Positions 331 to 51,609 of a stretch of DNA of 64,000 nt are shown one piece after another. Position numbers and translations under genes: made by a program. Origin of the DNA: Tubulanus polymorphus (taxonomy: Eukaryota; Animalia; Nemertea); the NCBI RefSeq assembly GCF_964204645.1, contig NC_134025.1, forward strand, positions 30,546,299 through 30,610,298, given 5' to 3'. The notes beneath the pieces are model-generated. The model had not been told where the DNA came from and did no database searches. It saw only the letters and a program-made list of their open reading frames with translations. Each line of letters starts with the position of its first letter. Position 1 is the first letter of the stretch.

Positions 331-1064
331 TGGAAGATGTTGTTAAGTTCATCGCTCTACAAACCAAAAATATGTTCGGTCAATTTCTGATCTACCCAAG
401 AGATGAACGCCAATAGTGTTTTAAGAGTATTAGAGGTATTTTTGTCAATATTACTACATAATTATCTATCCATTAAATTCACCAACACCTAAACCGAAAC
501 AAAACGACACAATTCCGGAATTTTACAACACAAAAACTGTAGGAAAAACCTGAACAAATTGCAAGTAGATAAACAGTTTTGATACATGTAAAATATCAGG
601 AATGTTTTATGGAAATAAATGAATAATTTTTTCACACTAAAATTACAATAAACGTCTGAATTTACGACCGACTGTCGTATAATTTACTTAATTTAAATAA
701 ATCAAATTGAATTAATGTCATAAAAACAAAAAATAGCAATGAATTTGTGGAGCAACGTTTTCCAACAGCAGGTAAATACATACTTTATAAAATGCACTCT
801 TGGAAGACAATTTTGACTTTGATTTTGCCTTGCTTTACTAGAACTAATCTGGGGCCAATTTATTATATGGATTTATTGCAGTTTAGAATGATTAATTTAG
901 AGACAAGGTTTCATTACCGGTACGTATTTGTTTGCACACAGTTTATTTGTCAAAATGACTAGAAATATTGGACCACTTGTAAAAATCACTGACAAACATT
1001 CATCATTATTGAAACAGTTGAAGTAAAAGGATGGTTGAGGAGTTCTAAGGAGTAATAAGTAAGT

Positions 1065-1279
1065 TTAAGGAGTGGCTGCTGCTGCTGCTTGCTCCTCGGG
1101 AATTTTTTCCGACGAAACTTCCTGGCCTTTTTTCTGCGCAGCTTTGAATTCCGGGTAATCGATGAAACCATCGTCATTTTTATCCTCCTCTTGTAAAACG
1201 CTGTCCACGAGTTCAGAAAGTTCGTTGTCTGTGTATGATTTTGTATCTTGATTTTCACTCGATGAACTACGATCTGCAT
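1065..1279 (-). CDS. MCFD2: MCFD2 alternative terminal exon C (distal, most canonical EF-hand 2)
   Basis: Acceptor ttcag, phase 1. Encodes ADRSSSSENQDTKSYTDNELSELVDSVLQEEDKNDDGFIDYPEFKAAQKKGQEVSSEKIPEEQAAAAATP*. Minus-strand AATAAA at 859-864 and 942-947. Confidence 0.88.
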
Positions 1280-3135
1280 CTGAATAAATTGAAACAAAAT
1301 CAATTAATTCCTGAATCTACGAGATTCCTATCTCTTCGTGAAAATGATCAGAAAATTCACCACCTTCACCTGTGGTTCACACATCCAACACCCCCCCTGA
1401 GAGTCTGCATGAGAGGACTCATCCCTCCCGGCAGACACCTTAATCACCTCATTTGATCCACACATCAAAAAATATTATTTACAAATCCCAATTTCCAACA
1501 TGAATAAATAAACACACATGAACCGGTCAAACTAGATATGCAATAGTACAAACAGGGTCAACTCTAGTGAGATACGGCAGGGTTTAAGGACAAACACAGC
1601 AAAATACCTTCAATATATGCTGATATATATGTGATACATTAATCACCAATCCACTAACGTACAAACATAGTATTAATATAATTAGCTAAATATAAATCAG
1701 TTAAAGCTTGTTATAGTTGAATTGATAACAATATTACTATTGATCTAAGTATTTTTTGCAGCCTCTGCATTCTTCACGGTTTCCATATAATGTTTATATT
1801 CAGCATAGATTATAAATCCATCATCGTCCCTGTCGCCTCTTCCTAGAATCTCATCCACCGTTTTAGTCAGTTCATCATCAGACGTATCGTTGCCTAGTGA
1901 TAGGATAATATCAACAATGACTGCCTTGATTGAGGTTTTTCATTCTGGGGGTAATTTTGCCGCAAAAAATAAATACATCAAAGATTTCAGGAGTTTCAAT
2001 CATTAAAACATGATCCACTTTTTCTCTGGTGGGTGGTTTATACATATCAGAGAATCAAAAATTTTCCAATCAGATTATAAGATATCTTTAATGGGGCTCT
2101 TTCTTTTCAAGAGATTCTTCGAGCTACTCATCACCAATGAGAACAACAAGACACCAAAAAATCAAATTCCCTGATGTTCAAAAAATGAGTCCCTGTCAGT
2201 AAGAACTGTGCTCTCATTGAGCGTGGTGCTGAAAATAAATGACATACATGTCAATCTGAAAATGAAACAGTGACCTGTGAATTCATGCATTCTGTGTGTT
2301 TGTTTCCGGTGCAAAAACTTCATCACCACAAATAACTGTAAACGTATTTTACCACGATTCTACTATGAAGCTTCTTTTTGTTTTTTAAGATATCTTTTGT
2401 ACTCTATATAAGAAGCACATCCGTCGTCATCAGTGTCAATATAGTTCAAAATTTCATCGACCATTCCTATCAAAGTGCCTTCATTTGAATTCTCCGGTGA
2501 AGCTAAGATTTATCAGAAATCATTTTACAAATCTGGTTTTTAATGAATCCCTTGGAACCAGTTTAATTATATAGAGTTGAAATTATAGGTGAATTTCTAA
2601 CGTTTCTAACACTAATATATTTATCATTATCATCACTTAATATTGATATTATTAATTATGATTAGATTCCAAAGACAAAACCAAAAATTGAGGAAGATCT
2701 GACGTACTGTATGTCCTACCATACTTACTGTAATGAGTAATAGCTTTTACAATTTCTAATCCGTCCAATTTATTATCATTGTCATAATCGTGAAGTTTGA
2801 AATAATGAAATTCTAATTCTTCATTGGTCATTTCAGCAGGGTCCTTTTTCACAACTCCATCTAAATGATCTTTTATATGTCTGAAAAATATGAACGATAG
2901 AAAAATAGAATTAAATCCCTCCGAAGTTTGACATGTTGACATGTAATAAAAGAAAAGATTGAAATTGTTTGGTATCTCATACTAACTCTTTGTCATGTAC
3001 ATGTGCTGTATCCATAGGATTCTGTATACCCTGCCCAGCATCACCGTGCCCGTGTGGCCCGTGACACTTTACAACTACTATCAATAACACAAATAGTAAC
3101 GATAATACTTGAATATATAGACTTGAATAAGCCAT
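1065..3135 (-). CDS. MCFD2: Multiple coagulation factor deficiency protein 2 homolog (ER-lumenal two-EF-hand cargo-receptor partner). Coding exons 3135-2987 and 2880-2729, then one of three alternative last exons (2502-2363, 1893-1745 or 1279-1065)
   Basis: Signal peptide MAYSSLYIQVLSLLFVLLIVVVKC, then HDKEHIKDHLDG...ELEFHYFKLHDYDNDNKLDGLEI (EF-hand 1), the characteristic MCFD2 motif. All junctions are GT-AG and in phase. Confidence 0.93.
1745..1893 (-). CDS. MCFD2: MCFD2 alternative terminal exon B
   Basis: Acceptor cactag, phase 1. Encodes NDTSDDELTKTVDEILGRGDRDDDGFIIYAEYKHYMETVKNAEAAKNT*. Confidence 0.78.
2363..2502 (-). CDS. MCFD2: MCFD2 alternative terminal exon A (proximal)
   Basis: Acceptor tcttag, phase 1. 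Encodes SPENSNEGTLIGMVDEILNYIDTDDDGCASYIEYKRYLKKQKEAS*. Minus-strand ATTAAA at 2087-2092. Confidence 0.75.
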
Positions 3136-3648
3136 CTGGAAAAAATAAAAACATATGTTACAGTTGTCTACGTAACACAGGCAGTTTACGTAAGTGAGGG
3201 GCTGCGGGAGTGAGAGTGAATCCGGATGGAAGGAGCCAGGAAGGCAAGTTGAATAGAGACGACAGCTTCATTCATCATCTTGCGACTGGTTGCAGAGAAG
3301 GTGACGATGGTAGATTTGTTTATTAATAATGCTGATTAAAGAATATCATGCTCAAATTACCTCACTGTAGTTATGTGCAGTTGACCGTGTAGAATATCGA
3401 TGGTAACAGCCGGTTAAATGTCCAGCTGTTTTATTACTACTGGAGCCAGATCAATCAAATCTTTTATTGCAATCAAGTATATATATCGCGAAAACCTATC
3501 GACTGAAATGTTCATATATTATTTGATATTTCATTTGAAGTCGCATAAGATTTATTACAAATTTTTGCATAAGTATAAATTCTAAAAATTAAAATCATTA
3601 ATTGAGTTGGTACAGTGATTGTATTAGCAGGAATTCAATGATTTCAAT

Positions 3649-3868
3649 GGGCTGGCCTTTTCAGTGATTAGTTTGTGTCGGTGCTGTGCCACGACACACC
3701 TGATTGCCAGGGTCGGCGTCGATCGATCGGTTTCGAGTCCCGACAATCCGGCGGACGACACGTTTGCCGAGTAGACTAAATTGCCACCAGTCTGGAATTG
3801 ACTCGCCTCGTTAGCGGATCACGTTCGAATCCCATATAATCCGCCGTACCGCAGGAACTTTTTTTTTC
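3649..3868 (+). ncRNA. Candidate structured, possibly Pol III-transcribed RNA or SINE-like element
   Basis: GC-rich island with consecutive hairpins (TGTGTC/GACACA, GTCGG/CCGAC, CGGCGGACG/CGTTTGCCG, AGACT/AGTCT, GCGGAT/ATCCGC). Contains B-box-like GTTCGAATCC and ends in an oligo-T run at about 3859-3867. Confidence 0.35.
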
Positions 3869-3966
3869 ATGTTAATTGTACCGCAAAAACAAATAAATAA
3901 CGGTTATAATTTAAATATTTACACTTTATTCACAATAAACATACATCATTGCCACTATTTATATCG

Positions 3967-7269
<3,303 letters not shown>

Positions 7270-7587
7270 TGTTATTGATTCTCCACACACTCGCTTGCCA
7301 GTGGCGGATTCTGGTTCCCACTCTGCGGGCTGCGCCGGGCAGCTGGCACTTAAATTCATATTCAAATCAATGTCCATCAATTTCCGAGAAGCGATCAATA
7401 TATGAACGAATTGAGTAAAACAAGACAAAATAATAAATGTATAAATGATAGTTTATTCAATTATAAAGATGTAACAATAAGAAATGCACTCTCAGAGAGT
7501 ATTAATTATGAACACTGTTCAGACATTTTATTCTAGAAATTTGTTTGCATTGAGTTTTAGAGATTTATTTCAAAATCTCCTGTTTTA

Positions 7588-10500
7588 TTACAAGTACGCC
7601 TGCCATCCTGGAAACAATCTACACAGATTTTTCACATCCATAGATTCTTGTATTAGCAAGTTCACTTGGCCTTCAATACTGAGTTGAATTCCTTCCTCAA
7701 TTCCTTGCAGTTTCTGTTGCAACCTCAATAAAACGCGTTCAGACATCTTATTCACGTCTTGATTTCCAATTGCTAAAAAGTTATTTAGAAGAAATACAAA
7801 TTCATGAGCTTCAATTGCATGTACTGTTTTTACGATTGTTTTGTCTTTGAAGGTCTCATAATTGCTGCAATAATGTTCATACGTAGACTTACTTTTTGGT
7901 TTAGTCGTATCAGCAACATCAAGAAGATCTCTGGTCGTATTCAAAGTTGTATCATCCACTTGTTCTTTCTGACATTGTAACTGGACCGCTTTATGCGGAG
8001 ATATAGTCCATGTATAGATTGGATCATACAGCAAAACTTCCACTATTGTTAACAATGCTTCTTTGTTCTGGTGCATAACAAGCATTGTCTTTTCACAGCA
8101 CCTAAAAACGGAAAACAGTCGCTTAGTTCAGGACCAAGTCACAAATTGAAGCGGGGGTCTGGGGTCCTCGGGATGTTTCGGCAGAAAGATTGACTTACCT
8201 TCTAAATACCCCTTCAGGACCAGCAACACCCATCCCATCTACTATATCTCTCGTCAAACGGAATGGCACCGTCTCCGGAGTGGGAAGAATCTTTCCTTGT
8301 TCAAATGCAACTCCTTAAATTGAATAATATGAAAAATATCATTAATATTCGTTCAATATTTCATCATTACCAGTAGTTATTGTCTAAATACCTAGATCAA
8401 TGTGAACCAGTTCAGCAGTATTACAATCTACGAGGATGTTCTGCATATGTCTGTCGCCCAAACCCAGAATATATCCAACTAAAATACAATAGAAATATAC
8501 ATGATTGTTGGAGGACTTTTGATCCGAAATTCTACTTTCGAATCTTATTGAAATAATAAAGATATCAATTTAACTATAATTCAGGCATCCAGTTCTTTTT
8601 CTTCAACCCTTGTATCAAATATAAGTGAAGAAGAACTATGGAATTAGATCCTTGCTTACCTATAGAGTTTGTAGCTACAGATCTGGTATACGCTAAACGT
8701 TTTTCATACCAATGAGCTGGATCTGGAAATTTCTCCAGGAAGAAATGACGGAAAACTGGTTTGAAATGTTTACACACTTCTAAATATGCTTCGAGAATTC
8801 CATCGAAACCTTTGACAGAATGAGCCGCCTGTAATTACCAGTACAAACAATATTGAGAATACTCGGAACTACTGATGAATGACCGAAATTTCTACATATT
8901 TGTGAAAACTAACCGTCATAGTATTTCTACATTTATCCGATGTCCAATCTTTCGGCTCGTAACGGATATGAGCACCAGAATTACCGATCAGATAATTACC
9001 CATCGGAATCGTTCCTTCGCACCATTCTAAAATACCACATCTCTGAGACATCGGAATTACCTTCAAAACATTCATAAATCCATAACACAATAGATGAGTT
9101 TCAGGAGATTAATGAAAGTTTTGTCCGAGAGCCATTCAGGTTATTATCAGTAGATTTGAGGTTTCTTTCACTCTTTTATGAAGAAAGGGGGGCCACTACT
9201 GGATTAACAAGTGATCACTCGGCTACTGCACCTAGGAATAAATCTATCATCTTTTACCTTATAAGTTCGAATCAATAGATTTCGTTTTCTAGTTTCTGGT
9301 TCTTTGTGTAGTAAGGTGTTCACCATTCCAAACACTTGTTGCATTACTGCATCTTGACGTAAATCATCTTTTCCCTAAAAACATTCACACAACCATTTAC
9401 TCGAATACCAAAAACCTTTAATCTATCAGTATCTGGTTTGTAGCTTAGATTCATCAACAGAGAATTTCACAAACCACATGATACTTGTATCAGCGCTTAT
9501 CTCAGTTTACAAAGCTTAACACCAATGATAAGGTCAGTCCTTACAGTATATAAGGCCTAAACACAACAATTTCTCGTTACACCATGGAGTTTTACACAAA
9601 CCTTGACTAATTGTTTGCAGTTTTTACCATCGGACCCGATACATGTGATTATCTTAGGTAGATTTATTCCTCCAGCGAGATTGAATTGAGTATGAAATCC
9701 AGTCACATAGACTATGTTCTCATACTGACATGTCGGATCAATCTGAAAATCATAACAAACACTCTTACAATTCCATCAGATTCCTGAGTAAAAGCGAAAA
9801 ACTAGACACTTGTAAAACTTACAGCTAACTCCTTCGTTGGTACTGCTACATTTGTCAATTCTTTGAGCTGCCGCAATAAGATATTCGCAGGTAAATTAAT
9901 AGGGCCTGAAAATATATTCAATATCCTCAGTTTTCTATCAATTTATTCTGTTATGATTCAACGTAGACTCGAAGACTTACTTTTTTGTTTGCTGTACTTT
10001 TTAACGTTAATATTAGCAAGTTCTATATAAGCCAAACATAGTTTTTCAATGTCAGAAAGTATATGCGCGCACCGAGACTGACGAAGTTCTGTAACCATTT
10101 TCTGAGCAGCAAGAACTCGATCCTACAAAACAAAATCACGTTACACAAGCAACAGATATCACTGAACACACAAAAACCAGGGATAATCTATGATATACCT
10201 CTTTCTCCGAGGGTGCACTTTCTTTCAGAAATTCAGCATCTTTTTTGGCATGAGCGAGAGCTATGATAACGTACAGAGTATGATGAGGATGACTGATAGC
10301 TGTCTGTTTAATTATCTGTGATAGAGAAATTATAATCATCAAAAGACATTTATAACCACGAAAAAAGTCAAAACTTAAATTTCTGGTTTAACAAGCTATT
10401 GGTTACTTAATGTTTTCAATGAGGACAAGACAAGTTTGAACTTTTTCCAGACCCAGGCACAATATCTAGAGTTGTAGGGCAACACTGAACTCAACATTCA

Positions 10501-32412: not shown

Positions 32413-33669
32413 CTACAGATTTAGTACATTTGTATTAGCGGATTGAGATGAGGATCCAACTGTTAACTGATTACCGCTTGGTGCAGACGAGCTACTATAT
32501 ATTGGAAGTTCGGATATTGTCCCACGGCGTCTTTCGTGACTTCCCGTACTTAGAAACGACACAGATGGGCGATCGGTTGATGGATCGGGAGCCGGCAATG
32601 TTAAATGTCGCTTCAGTCCGATTCGCCTGGCGACTTGTTTCGCAGGAGCGGTAATGTTTTGAATAGCATTGTCTATTTCTTGAGGGCTAACTCGCACCGT
32701 ATCGCCCAGGAATCGACTGCGAAGCGTTTTACGGAAATTCTGCCTCATAAACACGTAAACTAAAGGATGTAGAATTGTCGTCGAAAATGCTAAAGCGAGA
32801 AAACATAATTGGATCACTTCTAATGTCCAATTGAGTTTTTCAACGACGGAAATTATGCTAAGAATGGCGTGAGGTCCCCAACACACCATAAAAGTGCTAA
32901 CAATAATTAGAGTCATTTTAGTAACGCGTTTTTCCTGCGATCTCGCCATCGAATTATCTTTCAAATTCGACTTTTTTTGTAAGTGTCCAAACGTGGCTTT
33001 CACGACGGCGCTCCGGAACTGAAGTCTACTGCGCGCTTCGTGATAAATACGACAATAACAGACAATTATCGCCACGTTCGCAAACACGTAAAAAATTGCA
33101 TAATATAATTCGTAATAATACTTTCTTTCGTGCGAAAGTTGGAACCACAAATAACAGGGAAGCTCCGTGTGGTTTTTGGTGATTTCCTCGCCATCGTCCG
33201 GCGACGAGAAATTATACCCGATAAATGGCATCACAAATCCGAATATTGATAATCCCCAGATAAACACAACCGTAAATTTACTATTAGTCGGAGTGAAACG
33301 CCTTTTCATGGGCGTGATTATAGTATCATAACGGTCTAATGTAATCACTAATAAGTTCACGACACTGGCCGTACTGGCAAAGGATATAGTCGCCTCGTGA
33401 CAGTAACAGAAAGCACGGCCATGAATCCTGGACGTCACCATCATCGCAAACGTTAACGGTATCGACGTTAAACAAATAACTATATCTACAACGTTTAAAT
33501 TAGTTATGAATAAATTACTAGGAGATTTCATGGATCTTTGATTGAAATGATCGACAATTAAAACCGTTAGATTTAGAAATAAACCGATCGCGTTTTCGAT
33601 CATTAAAACAACGGCTAACGGAACGGTTAATTCGATCGCATATTCCTGATCTATTTCCGACAACGTCAT
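32413..33669 (-). CDS. GPR22: Orphan rhodopsin-class GPCR, GPR22-like, intronless coding region (418 aa)
   Basis: Seven hydrophobic segments. SNLFITNLNVVDIVICLTSIPLT, CHEATISFAS, ITLDRYD, CWGP and LHPLVY match the GPR22 family signatures. Confidence 0.85.
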   Translation of the reverse strand: MTLSEIDQEYAIELTVPLAVVLMIENAIGLFLNLTVLIVDHFNQRSMKSPSNLFITNLNVVDIVICLTSIPLTFAMMVTSRIHGRAFCYCHEATISFASTASVVNLLVITLDRYDTIITPMKRRFTPTNSKFTVVFIWGLSIFGFVMPFIGYNFSSPDDGEEITKNHTELPCYLWFQLSHERKYYYELYYAIFYVFANVAIIVCYCRIYHEARSRLQFRSAVVKATFGHLQKKSNLKDNSMARSQEKRVTKMTLIIVSTFMVCWGPHAILSIISVVEKLNWTLEVIQLCFLALAFSTTILHPLVYVFMRQNFRKTLRSRFLGDTVRVSPQEIDNAIQNITAPAKQVARRIGLKRHLTLPAPDPSTDRPSVSFLSTGSHERRRGTISELPIYSSSSAPSGNQLTVGSSSQSANTNVLNL

Positions 33670-34327
33670 TTTCTACGACAGTAAAACGTCTAATTCCAAT
33701 ATACGAAAACGAATCCTGTTGTCATGATTGCAAAATATATCCTTTATCCAGTTAGATCCAGTTAGTGTAAAATAGAGCGCAGAGTGGGAATATTCCGAGC
33801 AATTCAAACCAAAGCCTGATGAGTAAATGGTTAGATACCCGCTTCAACATCAATCGCAAATAACCTGCAATTTAGCGATCATCGTGACTTTGATCGATTT
33901 GATGCGCATTTTAAATCATTTCAATTTTCCGTTTCTGTAAAATTCTAGTCACGATAAAATTGAATTAATAACTGGAAGTTATCGAAGCTCCGATTGCTAC
34001 AGTTTGGTGACACACGACTCGCAACAGGTCCGGAACTGACGACAGAATAATCAATTTGCAGCATGCAATGCGTAAATATACACAGTTATAGTCCCGCGTC
34101 GCGTAATCTCCCTCTCTCTCTCTCTGCGCTCGCGGATACGTCGCGATTACATTCCTAGTAATCGCAGAGCAGAAGCCAAGTGTCAACAAGGCAACCAGAC
34201 ACGCATGCTTGCGAGCGTCAATATCACTTCTACAAATCCAAAATGGCCCAGGTCACTGATACGCGAAAGCGACAAGTTTTGTCTAACGTTCCAAGGTTCT
34301 AACTCGCAACCTGACCATCCAGAGAAA

Positions 34328-37689: not shown

Positions 37690-51609
<13,920 letters not shown>

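What the first reader, a model, noticed from the sequence alone, without database searches (positions are those of the whole stretch)
1065..2729. MCFD2 with three tandem, interchangeable last exons encoding three different second EF-hands
Seen: one phase-1 donor (2728) can join three homologous acceptors. Each opens an intact frame for helix + EF-hand 2 + tail + stop, with loops DTDDDGCASYIE (A), DRDDDGFIIYAE (B) and DKNDDGFIDYPE (C). The exons are strongly diverged in DNA yet keep the acceptor, the phase and the Ca-ligand positions 1/3/5/12, which suggests selection rather than decay. Established: human MCFD2 has loop DKNNDGYIDYAE, binds LMAN1/ERGIC-53 in a Ca-dependent way, and substitutions at D129, Y135 or I136 cause combined factor V/VIII deficiency. 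Exon A has Cys-Ala at the Y135/I136-equivalent positions; exon B has Ile at loop position 9. Inference: one gene may make a switchable set of ER-Golgi cargo adaptors differing in Ca, LMAN1 or cargo affinity by alternative last-exon choice. I am not aware of this being described for MCFD2.
Basis: partly seen in the sequence, partly recalled or inferred. Interest (0 to 1): 0.8.

Follow-up and report, generated by a model that had tools for sequence, protein, structure and literature searches.

The report
Cargo adaptor with swappable calcium-binding ends
A ribbon worm's MCFD2 gene, a small helper for exporting secreted proteins, carries three old, intact, diverged copies of its last exon; one is seen spliced in sequencing data, all three are in automated gene models, and gene models of snails, clams, a millipede, a tardigrade and a mosquito show similar sets, so the gene likely makes variants that would bind partner or cargo differently.

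Summary
Observation confirmed. On the minus strand, one phase-1 donor (2728) precedes three homologous terminal exons (A 2502, B 1893, C 1279), each giving EF-hand 2 and a stop. The three joins translate identically to RefSeq Tubulanus polymorphus MCFD2 isoforms X3, X2 and X1, so automated annotation already holds them. Synonymous sites are saturated while frames, acceptors and Ca ligands survive, which points to purifying selection. One run shows only the C junction; A and B junctions were not seen. C is canonical; A and B carry residues found in 0 of 143 reference EF-hand-2 regions. The wider result: 11 other species (7 gastropods, 2 bivalves, a millipede, a tardigrade) have same-gene models that swap EF-hand 2, up to six in Physella, and a mosquito model strings such cassettes together. 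Ten literature searches found no description for MCFD2. The mechanism is known from calumenin and alpha-actinin. Different LMAN1, cargo or Ca affinity is inferred, not tested; no other nemertean was available; single versus repeated origin is unresolved.

The parts
2987..3135 (-). MCFD2 first coding exon: hydrophobic N-terminus (likely signal peptide) and linker; an AG directly before the ATG suggests a further 5' non-coding exon (not located)
   Evidence: joint 2987->2880 in run X2; helix 3-24 in the model
2729..2880 (-). Shared exon: His51/His55 helix, EF-hand 1, His99; ends in phase 1
   Evidence: bridged in X2
2723..2728 (-). Shared 5' splice site GTAAGT
   Evidence: joint with GT..AG ends in X2
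2363..2502 (-). Terminal exon A (RefSeq X3, 146 aa); EF-hand-2 loop at 2437-2402; weakest acceptor (rank 18 of 77 AGs on a crude pyrimidine score); most derived
   Evidence: junction not seen in X2
2087..2092 (-). ATTAAA, candidate poly(A) signal for isoform A (untested)
2100..2175 (.). High-copy interspersed repeat fragment between A and B (edges approximate)
   Evidence: summed depth about 3000 against 34 in X1, many loose ends; no second copy in the window
1745..1893 (-). Terminal exon B (RefSeq X2, 149 aa); loop at 1834-1799; acceptor rank 6 of 77; none of 12 poly(A) hexamers between its stop and acceptor C
   Evidence: junction not seen in X2
1065..1279 (-). Terminal exon C (RefSeq X1, 171 aa); canonical EF-hand 2, loop at 1184-1149; acceptor tied for top rank; junction 2729->1279 observed
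859..947 (-). Three AATAAA hexamers (947, 877, 864) downstream of C; the X2 contig runs on past them, so the true 3' end is not fixed

Best explanation
This is a single MCFD2 gene whose last exon (helix, EF-hand 2, tail, stop) is present in three old, diverged, intact copies; exon C is spliced on in the one informative run, and A and B are likely minor or tissue-restricted alternatives that would retune binding to LMAN1 or to cargo. Shown: anatomy, shared phase, selection signal, C junction, identity to three RefSeq models. Inferred: the donor at 2728 defaults to the distal, strong C acceptor and in some cells uses the weaker A or B acceptor. A could end at its own ATTAAA; B, lacking a hexamer, would read through C as 3' UTR. 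No intron follows any stop, so junction-triggered decay would not apply (general knowledge). All isoforms share the signal peptide and EF-hand 1. C would be the ordinary LMAN1 cofactor. A and B are predicted to keep the two-EF-hand fold and loop ligands 1/3/5/12 but change the residues flanking and inside the loop, which gives a constant-plus-variable adaptor.
For: Joins identical to XP_074652968.1, XP_074652976.1 and XP_074652984.1. pS saturated against pN 0.37-0.48; neutral survival 0 and 1 of 20000. Pfam EF-hand_7 above cutoff for 3 of 3 isoforms. Model of A: mean pLDDT 82; its top 21 Foldseek ranks are all MCFD2 (alignment-driven, so weak). C scores 73 against the reference profile (reference minimum 42, median 78); A scores 1.5 and B 8.3. 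Same-gene EF-hand-2 swaps in 11 other species among 206 proteins. Derived cassettes are themselves conserved: snail cassette classes group across species; an Anopheles and an Armigeres cassette share 27 of 36 residues (counted by eye). Human EF-hands bind both LMAN1 and cargo, and D129E/Y135N break the LMAN1 complex (PMC10119632 passages).
Against: No A or B junction in run X2, even at 80% likeness and 1% share; one unbroken unspliced contig spans both (contigs drop rare forms). What RNA supports RefSeq X2 and X3 could not be seen. No other nemertean orthologue turned up in four protein searches, so A and B conservation across species is untested. A second individual (X2) has 0 of 11 differences inside A and B, which is not significant (P 0.09; 0.17 with the cluster collapsed). 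No binding or localisation evidence. A and B are so derived that they may have left the LMAN1 pathway altogether.
Confidence: 0.6

Rival explanations
1. A and B are expressed but have left the LMAN1 cycle: unable to bind the receptor, they would be secreted as free Ca-binding proteins, for example in gland secretions or seminal fluid.
For: A has Cys at the Y135-equivalent, seen in 0 of 143 references; both lose the acidic residue before the loop (Asp/Glu in 132 of 143) and the Gln five residues after it (132 of 143). No isoform ends in a KDEL-like signal. PMC10119632 describes LMAN1 as the shuttling carrier of MCFD2. Drosophila CG17271 is treated as a seminal fluid protein (PMC8457112, PMC13769083 passages); that it is the MCFD2 orthologue is recalled, not tested.
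Against: The D122- and L125-equivalent positions (numbering from the alignment), Gly6 and Tyr10 are kept in A and B, and EF-hand 1 is shared. B keeps Phe-Ile at loop 7-8. No localisation data.
Confidence: 0.21
2. All three isoforms do the same job; the copies are kept for different 3' UTRs or expression control, not for different protein properties.
For: All keep ligands 1/3/5/12 and the fold; the three would have very different 3' UTRs.
Against: A and B depart at positions nearly invariant from corals to vertebrates, and distinct cassette classes persist across snails and across mosquitoes.
Confidence: 0.1
3. A and B are decaying duplicates, and the RefSeq isoforms reflect splicing noise or homology-driven models.
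For: Only the C junction is seen; the A acceptor is weak, and the second individual has four differences 19-34 bases upstream of it; long branches for A and B.
Against: Synonymous saturation with intact frame, AG and ligands: 0 and 1 of 20000 neutral runs.
Confidence: 0.07
4. A and B are 3' ends of separate tandem gene copies, not alternative exons.
For: None found.
Against: tblastn finds one exon 1 and one exon 2 in the whole window; the gaps between cassettes are 226, 469 and 465 bases.
Confidence: 0.02

Closest known systems
Human MCFD2, soluble EF-hand cofactor of the LMAN1/ERGIC-53 cargo receptor (PDB 2VRG, 3A4U, 3LCP, 8JP4)
   Same: Orthologous sequence (E 9.7e-30) and fold; two EF-hands; His51/55/99 kept; isoform C has a canonical second loop.
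   Different: Three alternative EF-hand-2 exons. The vertebrate-type sequences inspected showed only the canonical loop (one degenerate copy, P0275, aside). The fourth Zn-binding His (His101; bioRxiv 2023.08.27.554937 section 11) is missing in all three isoforms; it falls on the junction codon (Thr/Ser/Asn), whereas 176 of 190 homologues have His.
Calumenin (CALU) mutually exclusive homologous exons
   Same: Secretory-pathway EF-hand protein in which one EF-hand is encoded by either of two duplicated exons (PMC4494069 passages).
   Different: CALU's pair is internal and dates to jawed vertebrates; here the exons are terminal, three in number (six in Physella models), carry their own stops and recur in several phyla.
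Alpha-actinin mutually exclusive Ca-binding-domain exons; 3' homologous alternative exons of ITGA3/ITGA6, SLC44A2/5, DEFB110/119, MARVELD3
   Same: Tandem exon duplication followed by either-or use, including 3' terminal cases (PMC4494069 and PMC9177970 passages).
   Different: For MCFD2 no functional difference between the isoforms has been measured; different protein family and compartment.
RefSeq models XP_074652968.1, XP_074652976.1, XP_074652984.1 (T. polymorphus MCFD2 X1-X3)
   Same: Identical proteins.
   Different: Automated models without comment on duplication, selection or recurrence; their read support was not visible here.

Membership tests
MCFD2 (LMAN1 cofactor) | Sequence and fold orthology to human MCFD2 | tested here: met
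   phmmer E 9.7e-30 for isoform C; the top 21 Foldseek ranks for the isoform A model are MCFD2
MCFD2 (LMAN1 cofactor) | N-terminal signal peptide plus an EF-hand pair | tested here: met
   Hydrophobic helix 3-24 (no signal-peptide predictor was run); EF-hand_7 above cutoff in 3 of 3 isoforms
MCFD2 (LMAN1 cofactor) | EF-hand 2 with D129 and an aromatic Y135 equivalent (isoforms B and C) | tested here: met
   Asp at loop 1 and Phe at loop 7; Phe occurs in 49 of 143 references
MCFD2 (LMAN1 cofactor) | EF-hand 2 with an aromatic Y135 equivalent (isoform A) | tested here: not met
   Cys at 7 and Ala at 8, each in 0 of 143 references. A is an MCFD2 gene product but is not filed as a working LMAN1 cofactor.
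MCFD2 (LMAN1 cofactor) | Four-His zinc cluster (His51, 55, 99, 101) | tested here: not met
   Three of four present; position 101 is Thr/Ser/Asn. Also absent in 11 other homologues of 190, so it is not strictly defining.
MCFD2 (LMAN1 cofactor) | Ca-dependent binding to LMAN1 and to cargo | not testable with these tools
Tandem-duplicated, mutually exclusive 3' terminal exons | Homologous exons in tandem, same phase, one shared upstream donor, each with its own stop | tested here: met
Tandem-duplicated, mutually exclusive 3' terminal exons | Each junction used in RNA | tested here: inconclusive
   C seen in X2; A and B not seen; RefSeq models exist for all three
Tandem-duplicated, mutually exclusive 3' terminal exons | Purifying selection on each copy | tested here: met
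   pS saturated, pN 0.37-0.48, simulation; paralogue-level only
Tandem-duplicated, mutually exclusive 3' terminal exons | The same copies conserved in related species | tested here: inconclusive
   No other nemertean found; the architecture recurs in other phyla; orthology of cassettes unresolved
Alternative last exons with separate poly(A) sites | Own poly(A) signal for each exon | tested here: inconclusive
   AATAAA only after C; ATTAAA after A; none of 12 hexamers after B. B may be an alternative acceptor sharing C's 3' end.

The most novel reading that the evidence does not exclude
MCFD2 is a recurrent hot spot for exon duplication across invertebrates (ribbon worm, snails, clams, millipede, tardigrade, mosquitoes). 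It works as a constant-plus-variable cargo adaptor: a shared LMAN1-facing half with 2-6 swappable EF-hand-2 modules, chosen by tissue, that give secretory cells different cargo selectivity. The derived modules of nemerteans, snails and mosquitoes converge on, or descend from, one class that lost the acidic residue before the loop and the Gln after it.
Probability: 0.3. Interest if true: 0.75.

Novelty: new variant of a known kind. Interest (0 to 1): 0.48.

Why it matters
How the LMAN1-MCFD2 receptor picks its cargo is only partly understood, and in humans EF-hand 2 is where disease mutations break the complex. Invertebrates appear to have kept natural series of EF-hand-2 variants on an otherwise identical protein: three here, six in Physella models. 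That is a ready-made panel for asking which residues set Ca, LMAN1 and cargo binding. It also suggests that ER export selectivity can be switched by splicing. The splicing mechanism itself is familiar and the isoforms already sit in automated annotation, which caps the surprise.

Tried and rejected
No whole genome is held for the window. No RNA holder listed in the run search; X2 was judged RNA-like only because its contigs skip GT-AG introns. X5 laid nothing, which is no evidence. X3 and X4 are patchy and show no splice joints. X1 matches the locus with 0 differences and may be the source sample, so it is not independent. Contig depths were not used to rank isoforms. Cassette trees on 36 columns are unstable: (64 rows) joins A and B with mosquito and snail derived cassettes away from C; (36 rows, 28 dropped for speed or long branches) puts C with A and B. 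AU tests reject neither A+B+C as a clade (p 0.45), nor a cross-phylum derived clade (p 0.62), nor that clade plus the millipede and tardigrade cassettes (p 0.14). The polymorphism test is not significant. The search of 50%-cluster representatives found no closer relative than Priapulus. Isoform B was not folded. PMC7193514 (crystal interface) is not held, and searches for interface residues found nothing, so which residues touch LMAN1 is not cited. The separate-gene and retained-intron readings (the read-through lacks EF-hand 2) were rejected as explanations of A and B.

Full report
What is there. The window's left end holds an MCFD2 gene on the minus strand: ATG 3135, coding exons 3135-2987 and 2880-2729, then a phase-1 donor at 2728. 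Three AG acceptors follow, opening exons A (2502-2363), B (1893-1745) and C (1279-1065). A profile made only from other species' cassettes finds these three and nothing else in the window (E 6e-20 to 4.8e-8; next best 0.32), and tblastn finds a single exon 1 and exon 2.

Already annotated. A search with exon 2 returned three Tubulanus polymorphus RefSeq isoforms: XP_074652968.1, XP_074652976.1 and XP_074652984.1. The window's joins with C, B and A are identical to X1, X2 and X3. The window may be the same assembly, so this is not independent sequence. That RefSeq alternative isoforms normally need transcript support is my recall; the support could not be inspected.

Not chance or decay. Over 34 aligned codons the cassettes are 44-51% identical in DNA and 38-47% in protein; synonymous sites are saturated (pS 0.88-1.00) while pN is 0.37-0.48. 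Neutral simulation kept acceptor, frame and loop ligands together in 0 of 20000 runs for A and 1 of 20000 for B (C used as ancestor, no indels, ascertainment not corrected). A second individual differs at 11 places in the 1449-base interval, none inside A or B; this is not significant (P 0.09).

Expression. Of five runs listed, X2 has contigs that skip GT-AG introns. It shows joints 2987->2880 and 2729->1279 (exon C), and one unbroken unspliced contig from 1250 to 2758 across A and B. No joint to A or B appears at 80% likeness and 1% share. Contigs drop rare forms, so this shows C in use and leaves A and B open. On a crude pyrimidine score C ties for first among 77 AGs, B is 6th and A is 18th. 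AATAAA occurs only after C, ATTAAA 270 bases after A's stop, and none of 12 hexamers between B's stop and C. B may therefore be an alternative acceptor that shares C's 3' end.

The proteins. All three pass Pfam EF-hand_7. Isoform C matches human MCFD2 at E 9.7e-30. A model of A (pLDDT 82, 40-row alignment) has both EF-hands and matches MCFD2 structures first; this is largely dictated by the alignment. Against 143 reference EF-hand-2 regions from proteins outside the multi-isoform groups, C scores 73 (reference minimum 42, median 78), A 1.5 and B 8.3 (the selecting pattern fixed or restricted loop positions 1, 3, 5, 6, 8 and 12). A has residues seen in 0 of 143 at positions -2, -1, 7, 8, 11, +4 and +5; B at -2, -1, 9, +3, +4 and +5. 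A and B share several derived residues and are sisters in both trees. In humans, D129E and Y135N in EF-hand 2 disrupt the LMAN1 complex, and the EF-hands also bind cargo (PMC10119632, passages). The fourth His of the zinc cluster (bioRxiv 2023.08.27.554937, passages and section 11) falls on the junction codon and is absent in all three isoforms, against His in 176 of 190 homologues.

The wider pattern. Two profile searches listed the best 120 of 807 and 120 of 1257 hits. Among the 206 proteins then held, those with an identical 90-residue upstream part and a different EF-hand-2 part come from 11 species besides Tubulanus. Gastropods: Physella acuta (6 forms), Babylonia areolata (4), Littorina saxatilis (3), Pomacea, Haliotis rubra, Gigantopelta, Arion (2 each). 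Bivalves: Mya and Dreissena (2 each; these share the tail, so the swapped exon is inferred to be internal). Also the millipede Chamberlinius (2, one locus tag) and the tardigrade Paramacrobiotus (2). Gene models of Batillaria and Anopheles epiroticus string two and three loops together. An Armigeres isoform carries a cassette 27 of 36 identical to one of the Anopheles ones (counted by eye). Most of these are automated models; their genomic DNA could not be fetched. Cephalopods, mussels, scallops, Owenia, Lingula, chelicerates and vertebrates showed one form only, but the lists are truncated and clustered, so absence is not shown. An earlier AI note reports a duplicated last exon in a sea urchin (untested, a lead only). 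Trees on 36 columns cannot decide between one old duplication and several. The differing exon boundaries in bivalves and the within-lineage grouping of the two tardigrade cassettes lean towards repeated origin; that is inference.

Mechanism. The most likely reading is a constant 5' part with a choice of 3' splice site: C the default, canonical LMAN1 cofactor; A and B minor variants with an altered EF-hand-2 surface and so altered LMAN1 or cargo binding (0.6). Rivals: A and B secreted free of LMAN1 (0.21), functionally equal (0.1), decaying (0.07), separate genes (0.02). That the array is selected and real I put at about 0.9.

Known kinds and literature. Duplicated either-or exons are described for calumenin, alpha-actinin and several 3' ends (PMC4494069 and PMC9177970, passages; neither mentions MCFD2 in its main text). 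Ten full-text searches showed no paper on alternative EF-hand-2 exons of MCFD2. I saw listings only, except the two papers above, PMC10119632, the bioRxiv preprint, and CG17271 passages in PMC3852387, PMC8457112 and PMC13769083. Searches listed 20 of 33 and 20 of 4599 papers. No supplements were read; genome-wide exon catalogues could list an insect orthologue there. That CG17271 is fly MCFD2 is recalled.

Verdict. Real, selected and already in automated annotation. A familiar splicing device on a gene where I found it undescribed, recurring across at least four phyla. New variant of a known kind; interest 0.48.

Noticed in passing
window 3967-8127, - strand: The 3' end of an ATM-like gene (FATC domain; best PDB hit ATM, E 7e-34) lies directly upstream of a KAT5/Tip60-like gene (Tudor-knot, MOZ_SAS), followed by MCFD2, all on one strand. 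That Tip60 binds the ATM FATC domain and acetylates ATM is recalled; the adjacency may be chance.
   Followed up: partly
window 2729-2730 (junction codon): The fourth zinc-cluster His is absent in all three isoforms. The donor sits about two codons earlier than in mollusc-type homologues, judged from their intron read-through products.
   Followed up: partly
window 2521-2536: Run X2 differs from the window by three substitutions and a one-base deletion 19-34 bases upstream of acceptor A; this could make use of A allele-dependent.
   Followed up: no
window 2100-2175 and 4356-4453: Short high-copy interspersed repeat fragments (summed depth about 3000-4900 against about 30 in X1), one between cassettes A and B, one in a Tip60 intron.
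   Followed up: no
P0114, P0148, P0098: A millipede alternative cassette and two unnamed relatives also have Cys at loop position 7, as cassette A does; they do not group with A in the trees.
   Followed up: partly
window 32416-33672, - strand: 419-codon open frame matching rhodopsin-family GPCR 7tm_1 (E 6e-39), apparently intronless.
   Followed up: no
window 46000-48000: Strongly skewed, GC-richer stretch with long open frames in all three + frames and no Pfam match for the one tested; probably a tandem repeat.
   Followed up: no
P0012, P0019, P0032, P0048: A second, divergent MCFD2-like class appears among invertebrate hits (Capitella, Anneissia, Schistocerca).
   Followed up: no
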